DNA from: Podarcis tiliguerta
Taxonomy: Eukaryota
Length of the DNA: 64,000 nt
Assembly (NCBI GenBank): GCA_965153285.1
Contig: OZ229115.1
Strand: one strand, 5' to 3'
The position numbers and the translations under genes were made by a program. The notes under the pieces are model-generated. The model was not told the origin of the DNA, ran no database searches, and saw nothing but the letters and a program-made list of their open reading frames with translations. Position 1 is the first letter of the stretch. Every line of letters starts with the position of its first letter. Shown piece by piece: positions 20,106 to 62,596 of the stretch.

Positions 20106-20452
20106 AGGTAAAGGTAAAGGGACCCCTGACCATTAGGTCCAGTCATGACCTACTCTGGGGTTGCAGCGCTCATCTCGCTTTATTGGCTGAGGGAGCCGGC
20201 GTACAGCTTCCGGATCATGTGGCCAGCATGACTAAGCCGCTTCTGCCAAAACAGAGCAGCGCACAGAAACACTGTTTACCTTCCCACCAGAGCAGAACCT
20301 ATTTATCTACTTGCACTTTGACGTGCTTTCGAACTGCTAGGTTGGCAGGAGCAGGGACCGAGCAACGGGAGCTCACCCCGTTGCGGGGATTCGAACCACC
20401 GACCTTCTGATCGGCAAGTCCTAGGTTTAACCTACAGCGCCACCCGCAACCC
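20106..20452 (-). mobile_element. Sauria SINE (full length)
   Basis: (ACCTTT)n tail on the - strand, tRNA-like head; 13-bp TSD CACACCTCTTGTA; homologous to 41095-41463. Confidence 0.92.
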
Positions 20453-36000: not shown

Positions 36001-39000
36001 TGTGCGTATTGCTCACTTGTTTCCTACAAGCATGCCACATTTGTGCAAAATGAACACATTTGAATGAATGAATTGGAAGGCAGGGACAAAGACAAAGGGG
36101 AATGCGTACTGGCATGGATGGAAGCAAGCAGATTTTGTCTCCAACTGCAATGTGTGTATATGTGGACTAATGAAGTAAAATTTGAACGGAGAAAATGTGG
36201 ATTCCAAACGAAATCCCTGCCCCCACGTTATTCCTTGAAATATGTCCTCTTACTCATTTCTGGAATATTTTGATTAATAATTCCTGAGAAGATGCAATGC
36301 GTGGCTAACTGAACTAGAATTACTCTGGCATTGAATTTTCAGCCAGCAGGTTAGGGGCAGGTACAGGGCTTTGATCTGTTTTTGTTCCTAAAATTCAACA
36401 CACTTTTTGTATCTATTTACATTTAGTGCGTACTGTGTTACTTCCAAGTTATTGATCCCATAAATTAAATAGGCTTGAGGATCATCATGCTAGAGCTTCC
36501 ACTATTGCACCACATGTGTGAGAACCATGCTTGTAATTGCTGCTGGTGAAGCAAACTTTCAGCAGGACTGGGCAGTTGTACACTTTTGGGGACAGTGAGA
36601 CCAGTGTCGTTTGGTAGTACTTGTGAAGTGGGTCAAATCGTTAAGGAATTTTCCAACAATCTATAAGTCCCTTGACTTGGCTATTTTGCAGCTCAGGTTT
36701 GTAAGCTTTGAAAGACCCCTGTGTATCTTATTGCAGAGATGTCAGAGCAGCTGGCACCAGATGAAGAAACTGAGGAGATAGAAACATGGGCAAAGCCACT
36801 CAGCCAACTATGGCAGAATCGCCCTCCAAACTTTGAGGCAGAAAAGGAGTACAACTCAGCCATGGCTCAGCAAGCCCCCTATTGTGCAGTCTGCATGCTG
36901 TTCCAAACCTACCAGGTAAGCAGACCAAATCTTTTAGAGGTCTTTGTAGTGCAACAGTGCTGAGAGAAAAGAGCCAAGGATATAATAAAAACTAGGTTGT
37001 GGACATTGAACACCAGGAACTAACAGCAGCAGCAGAGAAAACATGTTCCCCTCTTAACTTTCAACTTTCTTGGGCATACAAAATTAACCACAATTATATT
37101 GAATTTTTGCTTAATCCTCAAGAAAGAAGGGCATTTTCACTGGCCAGGTTTAATTCAAATCCTTCAAACCTCCTATGGGGAAGGTTCTCGGGAATGGTGG
37201 AAGGAGAAAGAATTTGGCCATGTGAAGACCATCAGGTGGAAACTCTTACACATATGGTTCTTAAATGTAAACTATATATTGATCTCCGCCAGCAGTTCCT
37301 AGATCAACTCTGCATCCCCAAATGGAAACCAGAGTTTCATACATTTTCTATTATTGGGGAATAATCAGGAGCTTACCAAGTTAGTGGCTAAATACCTTTA
37401 TCTGGTTTTTTGTCGTCGAAACACATTGCAGACATCTGATCTCTCTGGAGACCTAGAGATCTAATGTTAGACTGCTTTGCCGCTTTCATTTGACAAATGT
37501 TTTGTGTCACTGGAAAGGCGGGAATTCTGTATTGATTTGCTATGGATGTTTGTATGTGATGCCAATAAGAGGTTTGATGATGATTAGTGAAATATATATA
37601 AAGCACAGTTTTAATGGATACAGTTTTCAAGAATGCCCTTTTAAAAGTGCTTGAAATGTGTCTGAATAATTTGCATGCATCTTAAAAGGCATGTACCATT
37701 TTGTATCTGTTGTTTGATCTTAATTCTGTTGTACAGTAACATTTTATTGGTTGTGCAGTTTGTTTGGCGGTCTTTTTTCTTAAACAAGGAAGAGTTCACT
37801 AAGCCTTCCCTTCAATATTACCTTGCAGAGTTTGCTTCCATAGAGAGTTACTTGTGAAAATACTGCGGGGTATGGGTCTCTTTAAATCGTGTTGGATTGT
37901 TTCCAACAGCTGCTAGAGCCTACCCTTATCAACACCTTCCATTTAGCTTCTCTGAGCCAAATCTATTAGAAACCTCTGTAGCAGTTTGATGTGACCCAGG
38001 AAGCATTGAATATGGAGCAAGATAATAAAACAGAATGGGTACTATAATGGGATTACAGTATAAGATAACTGAGGTCTAATTTAGCCTGTCCTCGATCTTG
38101 GCATATGATTACTTGTTTAATTTTAAATTACTTGTTTAAATTGTTTAAATTATTTAAAATTATGCCCTCACATTTGTACTTTGGTCTGACAGCAAGTTGG
38201 CTTACTGGGTTGGGGGGGGGGTGTCAGTAATATTTAGTGTTTCTTTCTCACTAGGGAATTTTACTAAATCTATGTCTGATTTGTCACTAACCTTGTCATT
38301 GGCTGTGTTACTTGTCTGTTTAAGACTAGAGTATTGGTAGTTCTTGTGTTTGGACAGGACTGTACCTGATAGGTAGCGTACTGAATGAGTAGGTGGCCTT
38401 TGTTATTACCTACACTCTTAACTGTCTTCCCAAACTGGTGTCCTATTAAATTTCCTCCTCTCACAGGCAGATTGTGGAGGCCAGAGCTCGCAGGCAGCTC
38501 CAGATGCTGATGGAAAGATGAGAACTAAGCCCCTGATTCCTGAGATGTGCTTTACTACCACTGGCTGCAGCACAGATGTCAGCCTCTCCACTCCGTACTT
38601 GGAGGAAGATGGCACCAGTCTTCTGGTCACTTGCAAACAGTGTCAAGTTCGAGTACATGCCAGTGAGTACTAAATATCCTGGGTGTGATCCTGTGCTATG
38701 ATATTAAATGCTGTCCCTCCATTTTACTCTGTTTTAAAAAGGGAAAGATGGACCTGTGGTAACTCACAGGGAAGGATGCAGAAAAATATTATTGAGCTGC
38801 CTTCTGGGAACTACCTTGATTTGTACAGAGAATAAAATGAACAAGTGCATGGAATACCTTGCATTAGTGTGAATTAGCTAAGAAATGAACAGTAAATCTA
38901 ATCTGTGCACATAGTAGAACTAGAGCATGCCAAAGAAATTATGCAGCAGATTAAAAAAAGCATACAGAAAGCATTTGCACACCACACATAGTGGAACTGT

Positions 39001-39772
39001 GAAATTCTTCCACTTGAAAGTTTGTATAAGAGTTCATTAAAAAAAGACAGCAAATGATCAATAGGAATATCAGCTGCTATTAGGATTGCCACAATAAATT
39101 GTCTACATAAAGTTTTGGGTATTCTTAACACTTCCAGTCTCTAGCTATTTATAATGAGAAAACTAAATCTGGTTAGTTACCCAGTTTTAATAATTTAGCC
39201 CCTCATTCCTAACAGAGTCAGGATGTGAAAACCCACCTACCCCTACCCCCATGACTGTTCTTAGGTAAATCATGAAGAAATGTGGGTATTCCCATTTTGA
39301 AATAAAATATGAAAAGCATGTAAGAGGCTCAGTGCTATTGTTAGATATGTACTACTATGATTTGAATGGGTGATGGAATGGTTAGTCTAAAGTCCGCTCA
39401 TGTTCTGGTGTTGTCTATTTCTTCTCCCTCTGGTCTGAATGCCATACTGTTGTTTTCGGGGACGCAACTGCCGTATTCAGCTATGCAGTGATTAATTCTA
39501 TCAGTAAATAAAGTTACTGAAGCAGGAAGAGTAGAGTCTGAAAAAGCTTGCCAGTTTAGTTATATGTTGCTGCTTCACAGTGAGCTGTGCCCAAAGAAAT
39601 TTACAACATAAATCAATCTATCAAAGTACAAAAAAGAAAGGGGGAGAAATCAGTTTACAAACCTACCAATAAATCCAAATAGGATAAAATCAATAATTCA
39701 GAAAACATTGAAGAAATAAATAATCTAGATTTAACTTACATTTTGCTCCATATTTATGTATTAATGGACAAT

Positions 39773-39829
<57 letters not shown>

Positions 39830-42800
39830 AGAAAAAATGCTTCTCCTGTTGAAGTTGTATGTTCATTTGTGTTAGGTTGTTATGGAGTAGCCCCTGCAAA
39901 AGCAACTGAGGACTGGAAGTGCTCTAGATGCAAAGCTAATGCCTTAGAAGAGGTAAGAAAATCTTGAATGTCATACCTTTTGCTAAAAAACTCTTGTGTA
40001 TATGTGTGGGCCTTGACTCAATGCTACTGGGATAGCTTTTGGAATTCTATACATGAAAATGTTCTATTGAAATGTGAATAATATTGTGAGCTAGTTTCTG
40101 TTATGAAAATGCTTTATGGAATAGTATCAAAGGAAATTGGAAGGTTGACTTACTGAAATATATAGGCAATGACTGTTTTAGGCGTGTGCAATTGATGCAT
40201 GACTGTGCATGCACGTATCATGCTGTCCCCAAAAGTGGCTGGAAAAGGGAGTGGAGCGGAGCAGGTTGTGCTTACATTCACTCCGCTGCTGCCCACGGGG
40301 GGTCAAGAACGTAACACCCACACAAAGCAGTCAGTCCCTGTATTTGTGTCTGTATTTAATGGTAGCCCGTCCATTGAATGCCTCATACTGGAACTGTTAC
40401 AAAGTGCAAGATTCTTTGAAGTAGCTCTTTTGAAATTTCCCTAAAGCAGTATGTCAGGTTGCACATTGAGATTCCATGTTAAAATTAATATTTATGGTGC
40501 TCATTGAGAACTATTATCTGGTCTGCTGGTTTAGAGAATTGGGTCCTGTTTAGTATGTGGCTTATAGGTACTTGAGCTGATAATGGAACTGGTCTGTAAG
40601 AGCCACTACCTAACAATTTGGTTAGGATGCTGTGTATAGGCTTAGCATCCAGCTGAATAAGGCAGAGTTCCTGCTTCACCTCCACCTTCAATTTTCATTG
40701 GTGTAGGACTTCCTCTTCATTTGTTCTAGAACTCAACCCCATTGAGTGCATTCTGCCCAGCATGAGACATATGTTAAGCCCTTCATTTCTGCAGGTTTCT
40801 AGTAGAATTGGTTTGACTTCTCTTCCGCTTTAGTATGCTAGCTTGACAAAAGTGGTTAATGCAATAAAAATAGAGATAAGCTTGTACAGTCTGCAGGACT
40901 GAGCATTTTGTGTGTTTGAGAGAGATAGGAAGGTTCTGTCACAAGGATGAAAGTGAGAATTTCTTCATTTCTTCTGTTTTGGTAACGTGGCTTTTTTCCT
41001 TACCTGTCAGGATTGCTGTTTGTGCTCACTTCGGGGAGGTGCACTTCAAAAAGCCAATGATAACAAGTGAGTACTTGGGTAACTGAATATGGAAGGGATG
41101 CAGGTGGCGCTGTGGTCTAAACCACTGAGCCTAGGGCTCGCCGATCGGAAGATTGGCGGTTCGAATCCCCACGACAGGATGAGCTCCCGTTGCTCGGTCC
41201 CAGCTCCTGCCAACCTAGCAGTTCGAAAGCACACCAGTGCAAGTAGATAAATAGGTACCGCTGTGGCAGGAAGGTAAACGGCATTTCCGTGCACTGCTCT
41301 GGTTTCGCCAGAAGCGGTTTAGTCATCCTGGCCACATGACCCAGAAAAACTGTCTGTGGACCAATGCCGGCTCCCTCGGCCAGTAAAGCGAGATGAGCAC
41401 CGCAACCCCAGAGTCGTTTGCGACTGGACCTAACTGTCAGGGATTCCTTTACCTTTACCTTTTACTTGGGTAACCGAATATGGAAGGTCTTTTTTCCTAA
41501 AATGTGTCAATAATTCACTTAACTTGAAGCAACAGATCTGGGAATTACGAGTTCCTGTTTGGTGCAAAGTGGGTTGAGAGGAAGCACATTTGCTTACCTA
41601 ACCTTTGTACAAGGCAGGGGTGGGTGTAGGTTTGTTGGTTTCAGATGCATCATCGCCTGCAGTCCATCTTTTATAAGCATGTGCTAACACTCCATCTTCT
41701 GATGTTGTTCAGGTGGGTTCATGTTATGTGTGCTGTGGCAGTTCTGGAGGCTAAGTTTGTGAACATCGCAGAACGCAGTCCAGTGGATGTCAGTAAAATA
41801 CCACTGCAGCGCTTCCGTTTGGTAAGAAGGCAGATTGTTTTGTTCCTTTGAAGTGATCAATAATCCCAGCATATGCTTTTTGATTATTCTTCCATCAACA
41901 TTCTGATAAAGGATATAAAATAAGGTTGTTCAAATCAATAAGATAAATGAAGCTGGAGTGCGATTAGAAGCAGAAGCAATTATACAGGTGTAAAGTAGAA
42001 CACATAACCTGTATACTGTAACTTCTAAGCACTTCATATCCGTTGTTCCAGTGATCTGTACAGCAGCCCTATAAGTTAATTATGTTGTATTATGTTGCAG
42101 ATAGCAACTTAAAGCTGGAATTATAGCTTGCCAAAGGCCACTAAGTGAACTAATAGCTATAACTATTTGTTTTATGCATTTACATCCTGCTCTTTTCCCA
42201 TGAAACTACTAATTCCAAAGCCCTTCCCACCAACTTTTAGTCAATAGTATTCACCTTGCTCCTGCCTGCAAGATGGACACATCTTTCCTAGATGTGTGAT
42301 TATGAGGGGTTGAGAGACCCAAAAGCCTACTAGATACAAGAGATTAGAGGGCACTGAAATGCCAACAGCACTGGTCATACCAATGTCAGGTTGAACACAC
42401 CAGTTGCATTATAATGAGAGAGCAGACTGCTTATGCTGCAGAGAAAGATGGGGAAAGTAAACTATCCCAAGGAAATGGGCCATTATTCTCCTGCATCCTA
42501 TGTATGGTGTGCGGTTAACAGCCCTTTTCATCAGCAAGCAGTGTTGCATTACATTTTGTTCTAAATTACCTTGAGCATAGCAGGGGAAATTTACAAAGCA
42601 ATATGGCATAGACTACCTGCAGCCAACTAAACAGCATGAGTTCTCTATTATTCTTCACAGGGTTCTAGAGTAGCAGTGTTCATTTGTGGAAAGTGCAGTA
42701 CTGTATTTACTTGATGGAGATCAGTAAGTGCATTGACATTTTAAAAATGAAACATAAAGCCTATAATAAAACACAAATCAGAACTGACAGACCTATTGAA

Positions 42801-45800
42801 AATAGGAATTTATCACATCTGAACCCATACCCTCTCATCTACTTCTCACTTGAAAGAATGCAGATGACTTCTTTTTTTAAGAGCATAGGAAAATTCAGAG
42901 AACAAATTCTGAAGAGAAAAGATGTTCTTTTCCACTGAGATAGTAATTGTTATACCTCCTTTCTGTGAAAGGAGACCAGTAATTAATTAGGGAAAGGACA
43001 AGGGATAAGCATTCATTGCTCATTTTTATAGTAAAGATGAATGAATAAGCTATTCACTGGCAGTTGGCTAAGGACACAGCAAGTAAAACCCAGCTGTAGT
43101 TTTTTATGGAATACAATAGTCCCTGCCTAGCTCAAGAGTCTGTCATCATTATCATTTTATATATATAGAGAGAGAGAGAGAGAGCGCGCGCGCGCTATTC
43201 ATGAAACGATCTCCGGGCAGTTCACAAGATAAAAATACAAGATAAAAACCCATGGAAACTTGAGCCAGATAAATGACATACTGTCAGGTTAGGGCTGCAG
43301 GTCTTCTACACTTCCACAACTTTTGAGACTGGGTAAGCAGAGGCAAAGGTGGGGACAGCATTGATAATTTAGTCACACTTCACCTTAAGAGATTTTCCTG
43401 CTACCCTCTTGATATTACAGTAGCTCCCTCTCACTCAAAGCATGTCTCAAATTTAGTCTGCTGTTTTCAGGGTAGTGTGGTGATATGAACATAATTCATG
43501 ACTTGTTTTTATTTATGCTTTGGAAAAGCCTTTGTATTTTGTTCCCACCATGCCTTCATCTCAGTCTTTCATATTACTGTACAGTTAGAATGGGTATCAT
43601 AGTCCATTAACTGTTGCCCATTTATCTTATATTGTGAATAACCTGCTTCTGTTGTCAGGTATTTCATGGTTTTCAGCTGATGTTGTACAGCTAGGTTGGC
43701 ACTCTTGTTTATGTACTAGTTCAGAGCCCTGTGCTCTAAATGAGATGCTTGTTCTTTGTCATTTGGGTATTAGACTTTTGGGCATATCAGATGTGACATG
43801 AGAGCAGGGATATTGGAGGCACCATTCTTGATAATTTCTCAGCAATTATTTGAGGAAGGGAAAGCCCTGTAAGAATTGTGGGGAGACTGCCAGGGAGGGA
43901 CAGCTAATTGATAAGCCAATAAAAATGATTCATGAGGAGTTTAATGGTCCATCCATTTTTGTGACAAACCCTTGAACAAAAGTTGATGTACTACAAAGCT
44001 CACATACACAGGTAAGCATAAGATGCAAATGGTTAACATTTATATGGAATTTGGAGATATCCACAACATTTGAAAAACTATCTCAATATTTCTAAATCAG
44101 TCCTATATAAAGTGTGCTTATTTCAGTACCTAAACTTTAAAAATGTAGCATCCAAGCCAGATTTGAAGCTGATATGACTCACTGTCTTTTCTGGTTGTCA
44201 TGTTCCTTGAATCTGTTGACCCTAAACTGGTTTGTTCACAGAAATGTGTTTTTTGCAAGAAAAGACGGAAGAGAACTGCTGGCTGTTGCGTGCAGTGCTC
44301 TCATGGCCGCTGTCCTACATCCTTCCATGTCAGCTGTGCTCAGGCAGCTGGAGTCATGATGCAACCGGATGATTGGCCTTTTGTGGTCTTCATTACTTGT
44401 TTCAGGCACAAGATTCCATCCCAGGCAGAGGTAAGGTCATGGAGGCTGTTAGATTTAGTTTAACTGTTAAAATCATTTGCATATCCATACAGGGATGAAA
44501 ATAGTTAGGAATCCAAAGACATACAGCACCAGCAAAACACATAGCGCTTGGGAGGGGAAACAGTGATCTCCTTTGTTCAATGGAGGAGCATATCATTTTA
44601 GGGCACTGTGTTAATTGACAGCTTTGGGCAAGTTATCTTACCCTTCCTGGACATAAAATGCATTGGAAGTGCTTTGCTCCCTGACCAGTGGTCCATAAGC
44701 TTGGAAGTTTTATTTATCTTGACTATGGCTTTTCTTTTTTCTTCAGCGAGCCAAGGCTGCTCTTCAGGATCTTACCGTGGGGCAAGCAGTGATCAGCAAG
44801 CACAAGAACGGGCGTTTCTACCAATGTGAAGTGGTCAATCTGACCAAGGAAACCTTTTATGAGGTCAACTTTGACGATGGCTCCTTCAGTGACAACTTAT
44901 ACCCAGAAGACATTGTGGTATGCTATGTAATGAAAGATCCATTCCACTAGAGGGTGTATAGTTTAAGGAAATACCTTCCTGAATGCTCATATTGCATCTC
45001 AGTTCACATTGCTGAAGTATTAGTGTTCATTGAAGTGGGACAAATCTCTAAAGCACCTGAACAGGGCTCAGCGTATCACTTTGGGCTGTAGGATGTAGAC
45101 TCTGAATGGAGCACTTAAAATGCCTGACTGCTTTATTACAAATACTTTCCATTTCCTCATCCTCAGCGTTTTTGTACCTTTAGCATCATTTTTTTTAAAG
45201 GTTGCCAGATAACACCAGCTGTGGTAGGAGCACATATCTGAAACACCAAGGATAAAGTGTTCTTTGTTTTTTATTGTTAAACCTTTACATGTATTATTGA
45301 GAAAAAATAGGGAGAGGTACGGAGATGAATTAGCCACTACTGATTCCATACTGTAGAACAGCTGTGTAGTTGTAGCACCAGATTTGAAGTGTAAACAACT
45401 GCCTATTTAAGGCAGCAATGCTCTATGTGTAACACAAGTTTCATTCCTAACAGCAACTAAGAGAGAGCAGTAATTCCACTTAATGAAAGGTCTGATGCCT
45501 CTTCAACCCCCATTCATCCACTCAACCGGTAACTCTCTCCAGAGTGGGTTGGCTAGTCGGCAATATTTATTCTTCCCATTTGTAAATAGATAATGTTTAT
45601 CTTTTTCAAAAAATTATCCCACATGATAGAGTCAAGATTGTCTCCAAATGGGTCCTCCAGCTGGAGGTGAAGTTGTTCAAGTGAGATGGACAGACGGCCA
45701 AGTTTATGGAGCTACATTCGTGGCTTCGCATGTTATTCAGATGTACCAGGTAAGGACTGAGTGAGAAGGGATTATACCTCTATCTTCTGTCTCCCCTGTC

Positions 45801-57670: not shown

Positions 57671-59494
57671 CCTATTATTACTTTCTTTAAATTTCCATAT
57701 TGCCCTTCATCTGAAGATCACAGGGTGGTTTACAATATAAAAACACATGCATTTCTATTTATCTAAGTAATACATTTCCAAAAATGCTGTTATTTTTCCT
57801 GGGAGAGGGGAGAATACAGGCAACATGATACATGTACCTGCATGCTTTCCCTCATGAGGCAAATGGGGGAGGAAGGGTATGTAGATTTAGACTGGGCATG
57901 GGAAGATGTAAATGCTCCCTTTCTCAGCACTTCCTCACTGATTCAATTTGCACACACCCACACCCCAAAAAATCTGGTTTGAACAGCAACTCCGTGTTTC
58001 TAATCTAGCTTTCACCTACAGTAAATGCATGATGCATGCCAATTGCATTTGTTACATGTGTACAAATGTTTGCATTGTAAACACCACAAAGTATGAAGGA
58101 GGAACGTGTGAAGGAAGAGGTGAGTAATGGACTTCTGCCAGGCCACAGCTGCCATGCACTGTATGCATTATCTACAGGCTTTTTGCTTCACACTTTCCAG
58201 TGCTCATTGCCACAAAGACTGATGTATACACAACAAAGTGTTGGCCATGTGACGTAAGAACTGACTCACGTCAGAATCACTCAGGCAAGACTCCTTTCTC
58301 ATGGAATCATTATACATGGCTGGCTCAACTGCATAAACAACCCAGACAATTATTTAAGATACTGATATTTTTCTGGCTACTAAGGCTGCATATTAACTGA
58401 GAGGCATGTCCCAGGGTCCCCCTGCAGGGTCACAGTGGGTTCTAAAAAGCAAAGGTAGCTGTGTTGGTCCAAAAGAAAAAAAACCTCCAGAGCTGAGCGA
58501 TACCTTTCTTGGAACCCATCCAAATATCACTGAAGTGTGGCAAACTTCTATAAGTCTTAAACAAGCACACAAAGCAGAGGGTGATGGGGCAAGGAAAAAT
58601 CAACTAGTAAAAAATTAGACACATGAAAGCTGGAGTTAGTGAGAGGCTGACTAGAGGTAGGCTACAGCCACTCATTTAGCACAATAGATTCCTGAGGATG
58701 ATGGATGATGAATTATCGCTGCTGAAATCCTAGATCAGTGTCCCAAAGAGGTGCGAGTCCTGCATGCATTGTTCATTTATTGGCCTTTTTGTACATCTGG
58801 CCATAGTCTGAGTCAGAGAGTTGAGTATCAGCAGAACTTCCTCTTCCACTTAGTTCGCTGAGCTTAGTTAGTGAGGAGGATAGCTACTCCCTGGGGCTGC
58901 ACCTGAGCTCTCTAACATTTTGTTAACAATTACAACTATGGGACTCGGCTTATCACCCACAGAGCAGCCTCTGCTTACTTCCATTAAGTTAAAAGGCTCC
59001 TGCTGGGATGCTTTTCTGAGAGACACCTGGAATAGACTAAGTTAGCAACAAGATATGATGAGAAAATTAATGGAACCTATTTGCACATTGATTGATTCCT
59101 CACCGTGCCTTTATCTATTCTGTTGATCATAACTTCCTGGCTTTAAGAAACACAGGAATTTTGTCTCATTTAAAATAATTATTTGCTTAGTAGAATATAT
59201 ATAAGACATGGATTTAGAGGAGAGGGAAGAAGAAGAGAGCTGCTTAGGGAAGCAAAGTTCTCTGATAGCAGGAAAGTGTGTGTCCTTTTCACCATTGTAT
59301 GTGTTGTGAAGTACTAAGGATAACAAACACAGCACACCTAAGACCACTGGCTGCCCAAAGGACACGTCTGCACCTTCCCCACCCTCTTCAGTGCTGGTAA
59401 CAGGACATTGTCCTCCACTGGGCTTGAGGGCAGTAGGCTAGTTAGGGGATACAGGGCAGGATGCATGGTGCACTCTGCTTCCAACAGAGATAAT

Positions 59495-59610: not shown

Positions 59611-61050
59611 GCAGCAGCTGAGTGGCAGCCACACAAACACACACCTCTGCCACCTAACACAATCACTTCACTCTCTGGGTTGGTCCTGTGAGCAGCGCAT
59701 GAACCTTTGAATGTGCAAAGCTATTGTCTGACTATTGGCGAGGCAACCCACAAATTGACCAGTTTCAACAAGGAGAAATAGCAGGGATGGGTACAACTCA
59801 GAAGCAATCACCAGAAAACAAACACAACAGAGCTGTTTTCCAACTGCCACTTCTCCCCCACGTCACCCCCTCACAATTACAGCAATTGCAGCCTTTCAGA
59901 GAAAGAAGTACTAAATAAAAGAACAAGATCTTATAAGAGATCATAGTTTTTACACTTCACAATTTGAAAGAACAAAATATGTTCCTAGAACAGGGAGTAT
60001 AGACTCAAAAGATTAAGCAGAGTTGCAAATTATGACCAACTTAAGCCCATCTTTTATAAATAAAAGAGGTGAATTTAAATTTATAAACTTTAGATTTGCA
60101 AAAGGAAGGGATCAGATAATGGTGATTCCCCCGAGTTAAGTCCCTGTAATTCTATCCTACTTCTCCTCTTCTGCCCCATTTTCCTTTCCATCCCTATTTA
60201 GGCAGCCATTTCCTTCTCCCCTTTTATGCAGGATAATAATACGGCGATGATTCTTTTTCTTCTTGGTTCTGGACATTCCTGCTGAGAAAGGGGTGAAGTG
60301 GAGAGTTGCACATGCCAAATAAACCTTGGACTTTTTCTTATGTGCTCTCTTCTTGAAAGCATCAGTAAATCCCAGAGAAGCTGTACGACATTGTAACGTT
60401 GTTTAATCAAACTTAATTACTTCCTAGTTTTTATGTCCTCTTAGCGACATCCAGCTTGACATCTGTTTGAAAATACCATTTAATGTGAAACAACACATTA
60501 AAGCCCTAAACACCACCCAGTAATCATAGCCCTAATCTTCTAGGTGGCAGTTAGATGGTTGCCTGCAAAGACTGATCCTGAGTGAACAGTTTCAAGATTC
60601 AGTTGTCTCAAGATTCATTGTGGCAGGAAATCTGATTTTGTTGTGGAGGCTTTCCAGCAGGTAAGACACCTGAGAACATGGAGTTGTGTTTCCAGAGAGA
60701 CAAAACACAGGCTGAATAACAAATGAGAACCTTGTTGCTGTCTGTCTTAACTACCTAGATAATTGCTAATCTCACCTTTTCTCAGAAGCAGGTCATTGCC
60801 TATATCAGAGGTCATTTGGTTTGTGAGTGAACACTGGAGAAGAGGTGAGTGGTCGAACCCTCCAGCATCCAGCCATGACGAGGCCTTTTAGTTTTTTGTG
60901 CTCAGCGTGGGGTGTGATGAGGGATTGTTGTGATGAGCCATGACTGGATTCTTGTTGTTTCTGTACCTTGTACATAGTGATAGCTTGCCCCAACTGCTTA
61001 AAGTGGACTTCAGTTGAAGGTGCTGAATAATACTAATCCTTATCACATTC

Positions 61051-61254
61051 AGGTAGGTAGCCGTGTTGGTCTGAAATAAATAAAAAACTTTAAAAATTGT
61101 CCAGTAGCACCTTAGAGACCAACTAAGTTTGTTCTAGGTATAAGCTTTCGTGTGCATGCACACTTCTTCAGATCTGGACTACTTGACAATTTTTTGTAGT
61201 GCTGCTGGACAATTTTTTAATTTATTTCGACTGCATCAGACCAACATGGCTACT
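61051..61254 (-). mobile_element. Penelope-like element terminal remnant with inverted partial copy
   Basis: GTAGCCGTGTTGGTCTGA...AATTGTCCAGTAGCAC mirrored by GTGCTGCTGGACAATT...TCAGACCAACATGGCTAC; hammerhead core between them. Confidence 0.8.
61137..61173 (-). ncRNA. Minimal hammerhead ribozyme motif (PLE type), helix I truncated
   Basis: The - strand reads AU-CUGAAGA-A-GUGUGCAUGCACAC-GAAA-GC-UU-AUACC. Confidence 0.7.
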
Positions 61255-62596
61255 TTATCGCATTATTTCACAGGGACCAGGTCTCTCCTTAAGAATTGCT
61301 TTACGAACTATGTATCTTTGTTAAGGCGTTTAAGCTCTGTTAAGCCAACCCAGCAGCTGCCAGTATCTTATTTCATTAGTAATTAGGTTCAACAATACCT
61401 TTTGTCACTAAATCTTGTTTACTTTTATTAATTTCAATGTCCTGCACTTAGTTCTGTTGGACAGTACACCTATCCTCTCACAAATTTGGGCCTAGTTAGA
61501 CTTGGTAGCATGAAATGGGTCTAACCCCCACCCCACACCCCACAGGGCATTTCCAGTAGGTGACAGCCTATAACAAATCAGATAAAGAGTGAACAAATGA
61601 CACCTTGATGTTGTAACTGATATTATCATGGTCCTGGGATAGTATTGTTGCAGGGTCTGATTGACTATTGTTGCTCGTGAGAGTAGCTGTTTTAAATTAG
61701 GGAGCCATCTGTAAGCAAGGACAGACCTCCTACTCAAGCACTATGAGAAGGGTATCTCATTGTCTAAGATGAGCACTGATGATACATTGGAATGCTTTAG
61801 GTGGAGCTGTGAGTGAAAAGAAATTGTGTTATGTTGCTTCCTCTCTTGGGTATGTCCTGAAAAGGAAAAAAAAAGTGAATAGCATGAGAAGAGCCCTGAT
61901 CGTTCAGTCAGATGACCACTGTCAAGCATTCTGCTCCCACAGTGGCCAACCAGATGACTATGGGAAGCTGGCAGCAAAAGTCCTCTTCCATTTGTTGTAG
62001 TAGGAAATGTTGAAATGTTTCATTTAATCCAAACAGAGTTTAGTGGATTAAGTCTCTTTCCATATGTTATCTCAGGCAGCTTTAGAAACTAATGCAATTT
62101 CTAGAGCCAATTTCTTGGTTAGTTCTGTCGGCTTTGAGGACTGCCTTATATGCTGTTCATATTATCCTTGGAGGATTGAATTATTTCCTTGAGTGCAGGG
62201 TGGCAGAGCTAACACAGTTGAGAGGAAAATCCAAATCCCTTCATTTTCACCAGTTCTTCATATTGCTTAAGATTATGATTGGGGGGAGGGGATGGCACCT
62301 CTGTTGTGTCCTTATTTTTAAAATTCTGATAGGGAAACACAACACCTGACATTTTATCATCTAGTGAAGTAGTCTTCATATGCCAGGGATAGGAGGACAT
62401 GTTGAAGTGTTTATGAGAAATATGCAAATACCAAATACAATTGGTTTTTTAAATGGTGGCAATCAGTCCAAGCTGAACATAAGCTGAACAAAGTCCACTT
62501 GGTCTTCTTGTGTCATGTGCAAAATAATGACTGATCTGTAGTAAAAATATGACCTGTAGTTTTATGGATCAACGTTGCTACACAATAATAATGTGG

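What the first reader, a model, noticed from the sequence alone, without database searches (positions are those of the whole stretch)
61051..61254. Hammerhead ribozyme core nested in a fold-back Penelope-type remnant
Seen: the - strand of 61137-61173 has the hammerhead catalytic boxes CUGANGA and GAAA around a fully palindromic helix II (GUGUGCAUGCACAC), a minimal AGCU helix III and a UH cleavage site followed by AUACC. The motif sits between inverted arms (61057-61110 vs 61198-61252), so either transcript would fold into a long hairpin. Established: Penelope-like retroelements carry minimal hammerheads that are thought to act as dimers, and often show inverted terminal copies. Inference: the 5' strand of helix I is cut here (CAGAU where GGUAU would be needed), so cis-cleavage is probably weak, but the copy could act in trans or mark a non-autonomous retrozyme-like family. 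A more decayed similar terminus lies near 58452-58560.
Basis: partly seen in the sequence, partly recalled or inferred. Interest (0 to 1): 0.7.

Follow-up and report, generated by a model that had tools for sequence, protein, structure and literature searches.

The report
Jumping-gene stub carrying a hammerhead ribozyme
This is one of thousands of short, decayed leftovers of a known kind of jumping gene that carries a tiny self-cutting RNA motif, predicted to be disabled in this copy; across the genome many leftovers stop at the motif's first letter rather than at its cut site, likely because the gene's transcript starts there.

Summary
The minimal type-I hammerhead core, the palindromic helix II and the inverted arms are present. 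The 205-bp insert (61050-61254) has a 10-bp target-site duplication. It is a head-to-head stub of a Penelope-like retroelement: the core has 1,236 exact copies, and longer copies run into GIY-YIG and RT coding sequence with a Neptune-type cysteine linker. Family helix I is GUAU/AUAC; this copy keeps 2 of 4 pairs. It is not a retrozyme: tandem units are rare, copies do not start at the cleavage site, and this hairpin has not been copied as a unit.

The family adds a clue. 27 of 94 arms stop within -2..+5 of the ribozyme's first base, which lies 31 nt after a TATA box. Only 6 stop at the cleavage site (background). 69 of 100 exact stops carry an extra G. Likely cause: reverse transcription starts in the 5' UTR and runs off the capped 5' end of uncleaved RNA. 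The scan noted the edge-stop pattern before in another genome (e1-9377603). RNA data neither confirm nor refute it. Ordinary locus, moderately interesting family signal.

The parts
61040..61049 (+). Left target-site duplication (10 bp); its last 3 bases (ATT) also match the element's tail end
   Evidence: Seen in sequence; differs from the right copy by one A/G change at a CpG
61047..61173 (-). Arm 1: family positions +3 to +138 (hammerhead, 5' UTR, tail), 91% identical to sibling L122, with a 9-nt deletion
   Evidence: blastn against L122
61137..61173 (-). Minimal type-I hammerhead: CUGAAGA 61171-61165, helix II 61163-61150, GAAA 61149-61146, palindromic AGCU helix III, predicted cut between 61142 and 61141; helix I reduced to 2 bp
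61174..61198 (+). Junction filler: two short restarts of the same family segment (about +69 to +85) plus 3 extra bases
   Evidence: (61179-61195 matches +69..+85, 16 of 17) and direct reading
61199..61253 (+). Arm 2: inverted (head-to-head) copy of family positions +66 to +128; keeps the 9 nt that arm 1 lacks; no ribozyme
61255..61264 (+). Right target-site duplication (10 bp)
58453..58469 (-). 17-nt resemblance to the family tail; weak, no ribozyme core; membership not established
   Evidence: E about 0.08 in the window; D3

Best explanation
The locus is a single 205-bp head-to-head insertion of a decayed Penelope-like retroelement (likely Neptune clade) whose hammerhead is predicted inactive here, and such short copies likely arise when the element's reverse transcriptase starts inside the 5' UTR of uncleaved RNA and runs off its capped 5' end at the ribozyme's first base. 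Shown: family identity, link to RT and GIY-YIG, target-site duplication, layout (TATA box at -31, ribozyme from +1, tail, ATG near +140), pile-up of 5' ends at +1 and none at the cleavage site, excess G before +1. Inferred: +1 is the transcription start; the G is copied from the cap; the two arms are separately primed cDNAs joined through short matches or filler; this copy lost +1/+2 during that join and has no function.
For: Identity: 1,236 exact core copies and 2,693 of a downstream 30-mer. Longer copies continue through a TATA-containing repeat into GIY-YIG (P0002, E 1.6e-5, above cut-off) and RVT_1 (P0001, E 1.1e-10); L171 holds RT, endonuclease and ribozyme in order. Architecture: 42 of 87 inserts have an upstream inverted arm, 1 a downstream one; 43 of 87 have a TSD of 10-17 bp against 0-3 in ten mismatched-flank controls. 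5' UTR: an ATG with a shared N-terminal reading frame follows the tail in the 27 loci, and in 11 of these 27 the ORF start is followed by a return to at or near +1. Stops: 27 of 94 arms in -2..+5 (10% per base) against 1.7% per base in +6..+33 (p 4e-13); 6 of 94 at the cleavage site (p 0.28). Genome-wide, 948 sites break from consensus exactly before +1 and 1,318 continue with T (the class with TT was not counted); at the cleavage site 5 of the first 100 break. G precedes +1 in 69 of the first 100 such sites (hand tally) against 20 of 56 at other stops (p 9e-5), in both subfamilies. Published parallels: internal initiation at the tail, extension of both target strands, and use of unprocessed RNA by an anole PLE in vitro (PMC11167929); an untemplated 5' G attributed to the cap in L1 (PMC9341517 passage).
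Against: No direct evidence for the start site: four RNA runs gave no pile-up of read starts or ends, and no intact full-length copy was found. The G has other possible sources. Of 38 G cases read, 13 are AG, which matches the start of an inverted tail, and 24 are TG, which matches the reverse complement of the helix I 3' strand. G is also common at other stops (36%). Only some ORF-to-+1 returns have the G (L281, L285, L299; not L295, L297, L302). A second, young PLE family in this genome shows no sharp pile-up and no clear G; its short arms end 17-39 nt before its core, in a sample I biased toward short pairs. The pyrimidine tract plus AG just before +1 could be a splice acceptor. The window copy itself starts at +3, so it fits the model but does not test it. 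The Neptune label rests on the linker motif, not on a tree.
Confidence: 0.7

Rival explanations
1. Same element, but reverse transcription stops or the join is made at +1 because of the ribozyme itself (a folded, dimeric or protein-bound hammerhead, or pairing of the cDNA end through helix I), and the extra G is templated from the element's own opposite strand.
For: GGUAU is the reverse complement of the helix I 3' strand. Some joins use helix I, helix II or the AGCU palindrome (L066, L079, L092, L106). An unchecked note reports edge stops in another genome.
Against: The 3' strand of helix I is copied before the enzyme reaches +1. The TATA box sits at the usual distance (-31). The young family has 1 of 62 arms stopping near its hammerhead edge. 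18 of 25 exact-stop copies without a detected inverted arm also carry the G.
Confidence: 0.2
2. A non-autonomous retrozyme- or SINE-like family processed by the hammerhead, or a copy that works in trans.
For: Very many short copies (median insert 168 bp); intact catalytic boxes; retrozymes are proposed to derive from PLE repeats (10.64898/2026.07.22.740005).
Against: Copies do not start at the cleavage site. Tandem units are rare (1 close same-strand pair in 100). Junctions differ from copy to copy. This hairpin has no sibling with the same junction among 40 scored candidates.
Confidence: 0.05
3. +1 marks a splice junction: an intron in the 5' UTR ends next to helix I, as in Drosophila virilis Penelope, and short copies come from spliced RNA.
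For: A pyrimidine tract ending in CAG lies at -4..-2. In D. virilis the intron end maps to the 5' end of helix I (PMC4209133).
Against: Splicing at that AG would leave T, not G, before +1, preceded by a fixed exon. Upstream letters are heterogeneous in the 53 loci read.
Confidence: 0.05

Closest known systems
Minimal hammerheads of metazoan Penelope-like elements (Cervera and De la Pena 2014, PMC4209133)
   Same: Type-I core in the terminal repeat; 4-bp helix I; unpaired base between positions 9 and 10.1; G10.1-C11.1 pair; tiny palindromic helix III; mostly dispersed single motifs from truncated copies; reported in reptiles.
   Different: Helix II here is 5 bp with a loop that makes the whole 14 nt palindromic. 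This copy has lost half of helix I. In the parts I read, the paper does not map copy 5' ends.
Neptune-clade EN+ PLEs (PMC8557442 passages)
   Same: RT then C-terminal GIY-YIG; C-x4-C-x2-C linker; inverted 5'-truncated copy; tail at one end; TSD.
   Different: No tree was built and no intact full-length copy was found. Nematis shares the linker.
Poseidon element PAc of the green anole (Frangieh et al. 2024, PMC11167929)
   Same: Internal initiation at tail sites, ATT at the target junction, uncleaved RNA as template, no RNA reads ending at the cleavage site.
   Different: PAc is Poseidon clade and its ORF starts inside the ribozyme; here the ATG lies about 140 nt after the ribozyme's first base.
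Non-LTR retrozymes (10.64898/2026.07.22.740005)
   Same: Non-coding, type-I hammerhead, related to PLE repeats.
   Different: Retrozymes are tandem arrays with a ribozyme in each unit; this is a solo inverted insertion.

Membership tests
EN+ Penelope-like element | RT domain linked to the repeat | tested here: met
   RVT_1 E 1.1e-10 in L171, upstream of the same ribozyme repeat; not in the window copy itself
EN+ Penelope-like element | C-terminal GIY-YIG endonuclease | tested here: met
   P0002 E 1.6e-5, above cut-off; weaker hits in L151 and L171
EN+ Penelope-like element | Terminal repeat with hammerhead, adjacent inverted truncated copy, tail, TSD | tested here: met
   42 of 87 inverted; 43 of 87 with TSD; 43 of 94 arms reach the tail; window copy has all of these
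EN+ Penelope-like element | Intact single ORF between two repeats | tested here: inconclusive
   Only broken pieces and the first 175 nt or so of the ORF were found; searches score only the best candidates
Neptune clade | CX2-5CxxC linker between RT and endonuclease | tested here: met
   C-x4-C-x2-C in P0002; feature as described in PMC8557442
Neptune clade | RT phylogeny groups with Neptune | not tested
   No reference Neptune sequences were at hand
Minimal type-I hammerhead | Catalytic core, helix II with G10.1-C11.1, A15.1-U16.1, H17 | tested here: met
   Sequence; helix II pair probability about 0.95 in context
Minimal type-I hammerhead | Helix I of 4-5 bp | tested here: not met
   2 bp in the window copy (pair probability 0.02); family has 4 bp, with 4 or more in 18 of 30 loci
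Minimal type-I hammerhead | Self-cleavage, as dimer or protein-assisted | not testable with these tools
   Needs a bench assay; the predicted lowest-energy dimer pairs through helix II, not helix III
Non-LTR retrozyme | Tandem units each with a hammerhead | tested here: not met
   1 close same-strand pair among the first 100 of 1,236 core sites
Non-LTR retrozyme | Unit boundaries at the cleavage site | tested here: not met
   6 of 94 arms (p 0.28); 95 of 100 keep consensus before the site
Non-LTR retrozyme | Circular RNA accumulates | tested here: inconclusive
   One back-joint with 4 reads in one run, which a genomic tandem join would also give

The most novel reading that the evidence does not exclude
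The dispersed solo hammerheads of this Penelope-like family are a fossil 5' RACE: the promoter fires at the ribozyme's first base, the enzyme primes internally in the 5' UTR, runs off the cap and jumps onward. The ribozyme is then not a unit-length processing tool but a switch at the very front of the mRNA that would remove the cap with a 34-nt leader, and the head-to-head inversions come from two separately primed cDNAs.
Probability: 0.45. Interest if true: 0.62.

Novelty: new member of a known kind. Interest (0 to 1): 0.38.

Why it matters
The locus itself is routine transposon debris. The family matters a little more because the job of the Penelope hammerhead is open: it cleaves poorly and was dispensable for insertion in vitro (PMC4209133, PMC11167929). 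Thousands of genomic copies show that the copied RNA was uncleaved and that its 5' end probably coincides with the ribozyme's first base. If so, this explains why such genomes are littered with solo minimal hammerheads, and it gives a direct test: capped against uncapped template in the existing in vitro assay.

Tried and rejected
Rfam scan of 54-64 kb: no hammerhead hit.
Loose pattern in the window: not above chance.
Apparent full-length element at C2:104.19 Mb: two separate truncated copies.
RNA: no listed holder is on record as RNA. Four raw RNA runs added by species label, not shown to be the species of G000, were laid on sibling L122; 92-95% of reads ran on into unrelated sequence and no start or end pile-up appeared. 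This is uninformative for start or cleavage sites. Expression of the window locus itself remains unexamined.
An apparent pile-up 119 nt before the young family's core was an artefact of a rare allele in my reference; dropped.
The first inverted-arm count (78 of 87) was inflated by internal palindromes; replaced by 42 of 87.
Gene context: exons of a KDM4-type gene lie at 38.4-45.8 kb on +. Among 76 frames of 75 aa or more beyond 30 kb, the only hit past 45.8 kb was one weak below-cut-off match at 46 kb, so intron or intergenic is unresolved.
The dimer-cleavage paper PMC5785218 was not held.
No earlier notes exist for this genome.

Full report
1. Observation. The minus strand of 61171-61137 carries the hammerhead core, a 5-bp helix II within a 14-nt palindrome, GAAA, a palindromic AGCU and a UU cleavage site. 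Rfam does not detect it, and a loose pattern is near chance in the window. The exact 27-nt core occurs 1,236 times in the 1.46-Gb genome and the reversed control 0 times.

2. What it is. Longer siblings continue upstream through a TATA-containing repeat into coding sequence. Pfam finds GIY-YIG in P0002 (E 1.6e-5) and RVT_1 in P0001 (E 1.1e-10); L171 has RT, endonuclease and ribozyme in that order. P0002 has a C-x4-C-x2-C linker, the mark of Neptune and Nematis elements in PMC8557442 (passages). Siblings are 88-94% identical to one query copy, fall into two subfamilies, and all coding pieces found are broken, so the family looks old and inactive. Numbering from the first base of helix I as +1, the TATA box (TATATAAG) starts at -31, the predicted cut is at +34/+35, and an ATG with a shared reading frame lies near +140. 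The ribozyme and tail therefore form the 5' UTR as well as the 3' end of the element.

3. The window copy. Arm 1 (minus, 61173-61047) is family +3..+138 at 91% identity. After two short restarts (61174-61198) comes arm 2 (plus, 61199-61253), family +66..+128. A 10-bp duplication (61040-61049, 61255-61264; one mismatch) flanks the whole. This layout is common: 42 of 87 sampled inserts have a head-to-head arm, and 43 of 87 have a 10-17-bp duplication against 0-3 in controls (sample = 90 loci taken from the first 100 of 2,693 anchor sites, all on contig C1). Helix I keeps 2 pairs here, against 4 or more in 18 of 30 siblings. No other scored locus shares its flanks or junction. The site near 58452 is a 17-nt match only.

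4. Family signal. Of 94 arms anchored downstream of the ribozyme, 27 end within -2..+5 (10% per base against 1.7% in +6..+33; p 4e-13), and 6 end at the cleavage site (p 0.28). Genome-wide, 948 sites leave the consensus exactly before +1 while 1,318 continue with T after A, C or G. At the cleavage site, 95 of the first 100 of 1,649 keep the consensus (subfamily B). Of the first 100 exact stops, 69 have G, 23 A and 8 C (hand tally); at other stops G is 20 of 56. In 11 of 27 loci that reach the ATG, the ORF start is followed by a return to at or near +1, three with an extra G.

5. Mechanism. Shown: the copied RNA was mostly uncleaved, and copying often ended at +1. Inferred: +1 is the capped transcription start. 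The enzyme primes internally at the tail, as shown in vitro for the anole element PAc (PMC11167929, parts 1-2 of 4 read). When the tail used is the one in the 5' UTR, only about 100-140 nt are left to copy, and the cap adds a base, as proposed for L1 (PMC9341517, passages). The second arm is likely a second cDNA primed from the other target strand. Support comes from a different, very young PLE family in the same genome: in all 17 inverted pairs one arm has a short and one a long tail, and in 14 of 17 (10 by 12 nt or more) the short-tail arm reaches further 5', so neither arm can be a copy of the other. This differs from the self-priming reading in PMC3846280 (passages), which also notes TATA plus initiator motifs in rotifer repeats. 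D. virilis Penelope has a TATA-less internal promoter (PMC2377424, passages).

6. Against. RNA reads gave no start or end signal. The G may be templated from the opposite arm (13 AG, 24 TG and 1 GG of 38). The young family shows no sharp stop and no clear G; its short arms end 17-39 nt before its core, near a TATA-like box 66 nt before it, in a sample biased to short pairs. The binomial tests treat arms as independent although some are pairs.

7. Known and new. Minimal hammerheads in PLE repeats, their dispersal as single motifs and their weak dimer activity are published (PMC4209133, parts 1-2 of 4 read; review PMC6765202, passages). Retrozymes are tandem (10.64898/2026.07.22.740005, part 1 of 5 and passages), and this is not. 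I found no paper reporting copies ending at a TATA-positioned +1 with an extra G in searches, but the library lacks most subscription papers, PMC5785218 was not held, and no supplements were read. An unchecked note of this scan reports the edge stop in a shark-type genome; I saw it after my own analysis and do not count it as evidence. The usual TATA-to-start distance of about 30 nt and the hammerhead numbering are recalled textbook knowledge.

8. Verdict. Real motif, ordinary locus, new member of a known kind. Interest 0.38, carried by the family-level 5'-end signal.

Noticed in passing
L225, L234, L236 (e.g. G000:C1:81290000-81299900): A second, very young PLE family: 3,387 exact copies of its 34-nt hammerhead core, 2,965-bp tandem units, a 991-aa open frame starting inside the ribozyme core, copies about 99.8% identical, inserted in (TA)n runs, with 3' ends at three fixed sites (90, 119, 124 nt from the core). 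Poseidon-like and probably active; a good candidate for mechanistic work.
   Followed up: partly
L305-L354: In the young family both arms of an inverted pair share private variants (e.g. L313/L314 share 6), and each pair has one short and one long tail.
   Followed up: partly
window 38422-45755 (+): Exons with PHD, zf-HC5HC2H and two Tudor_2 matches, typical of a KDM4/JMJD2 histone demethylase gene.
   Followed up: no
L015 and L017 (G000:C1:18.36 Mb and 19.22 Mb): Two distant inverted copies share the same unusual junction filler, which hints that a hairpin unit was occasionally copied again or duplicated.
   Followed up: no
L228-L230 (G000:C2:1.09-1.12 Mb): Three near-identical copies of an RT-bearing fragment of the old family at about 10-kb spacing, next to an 84-bp coding-like repeat: a local segmental array.
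   Followed up: no
L122:1778-1779: A cluster of RNA reads with one shared flank (67-104 reads per run in two bulk runs) points to one well-expressed host transcript that contains a longer copy of the repeat.
   Followed up: no
window 20109-20364 and 41094-41457: Copies of another common short repeat, unrelated to the hammerhead family.
   Followed up: no
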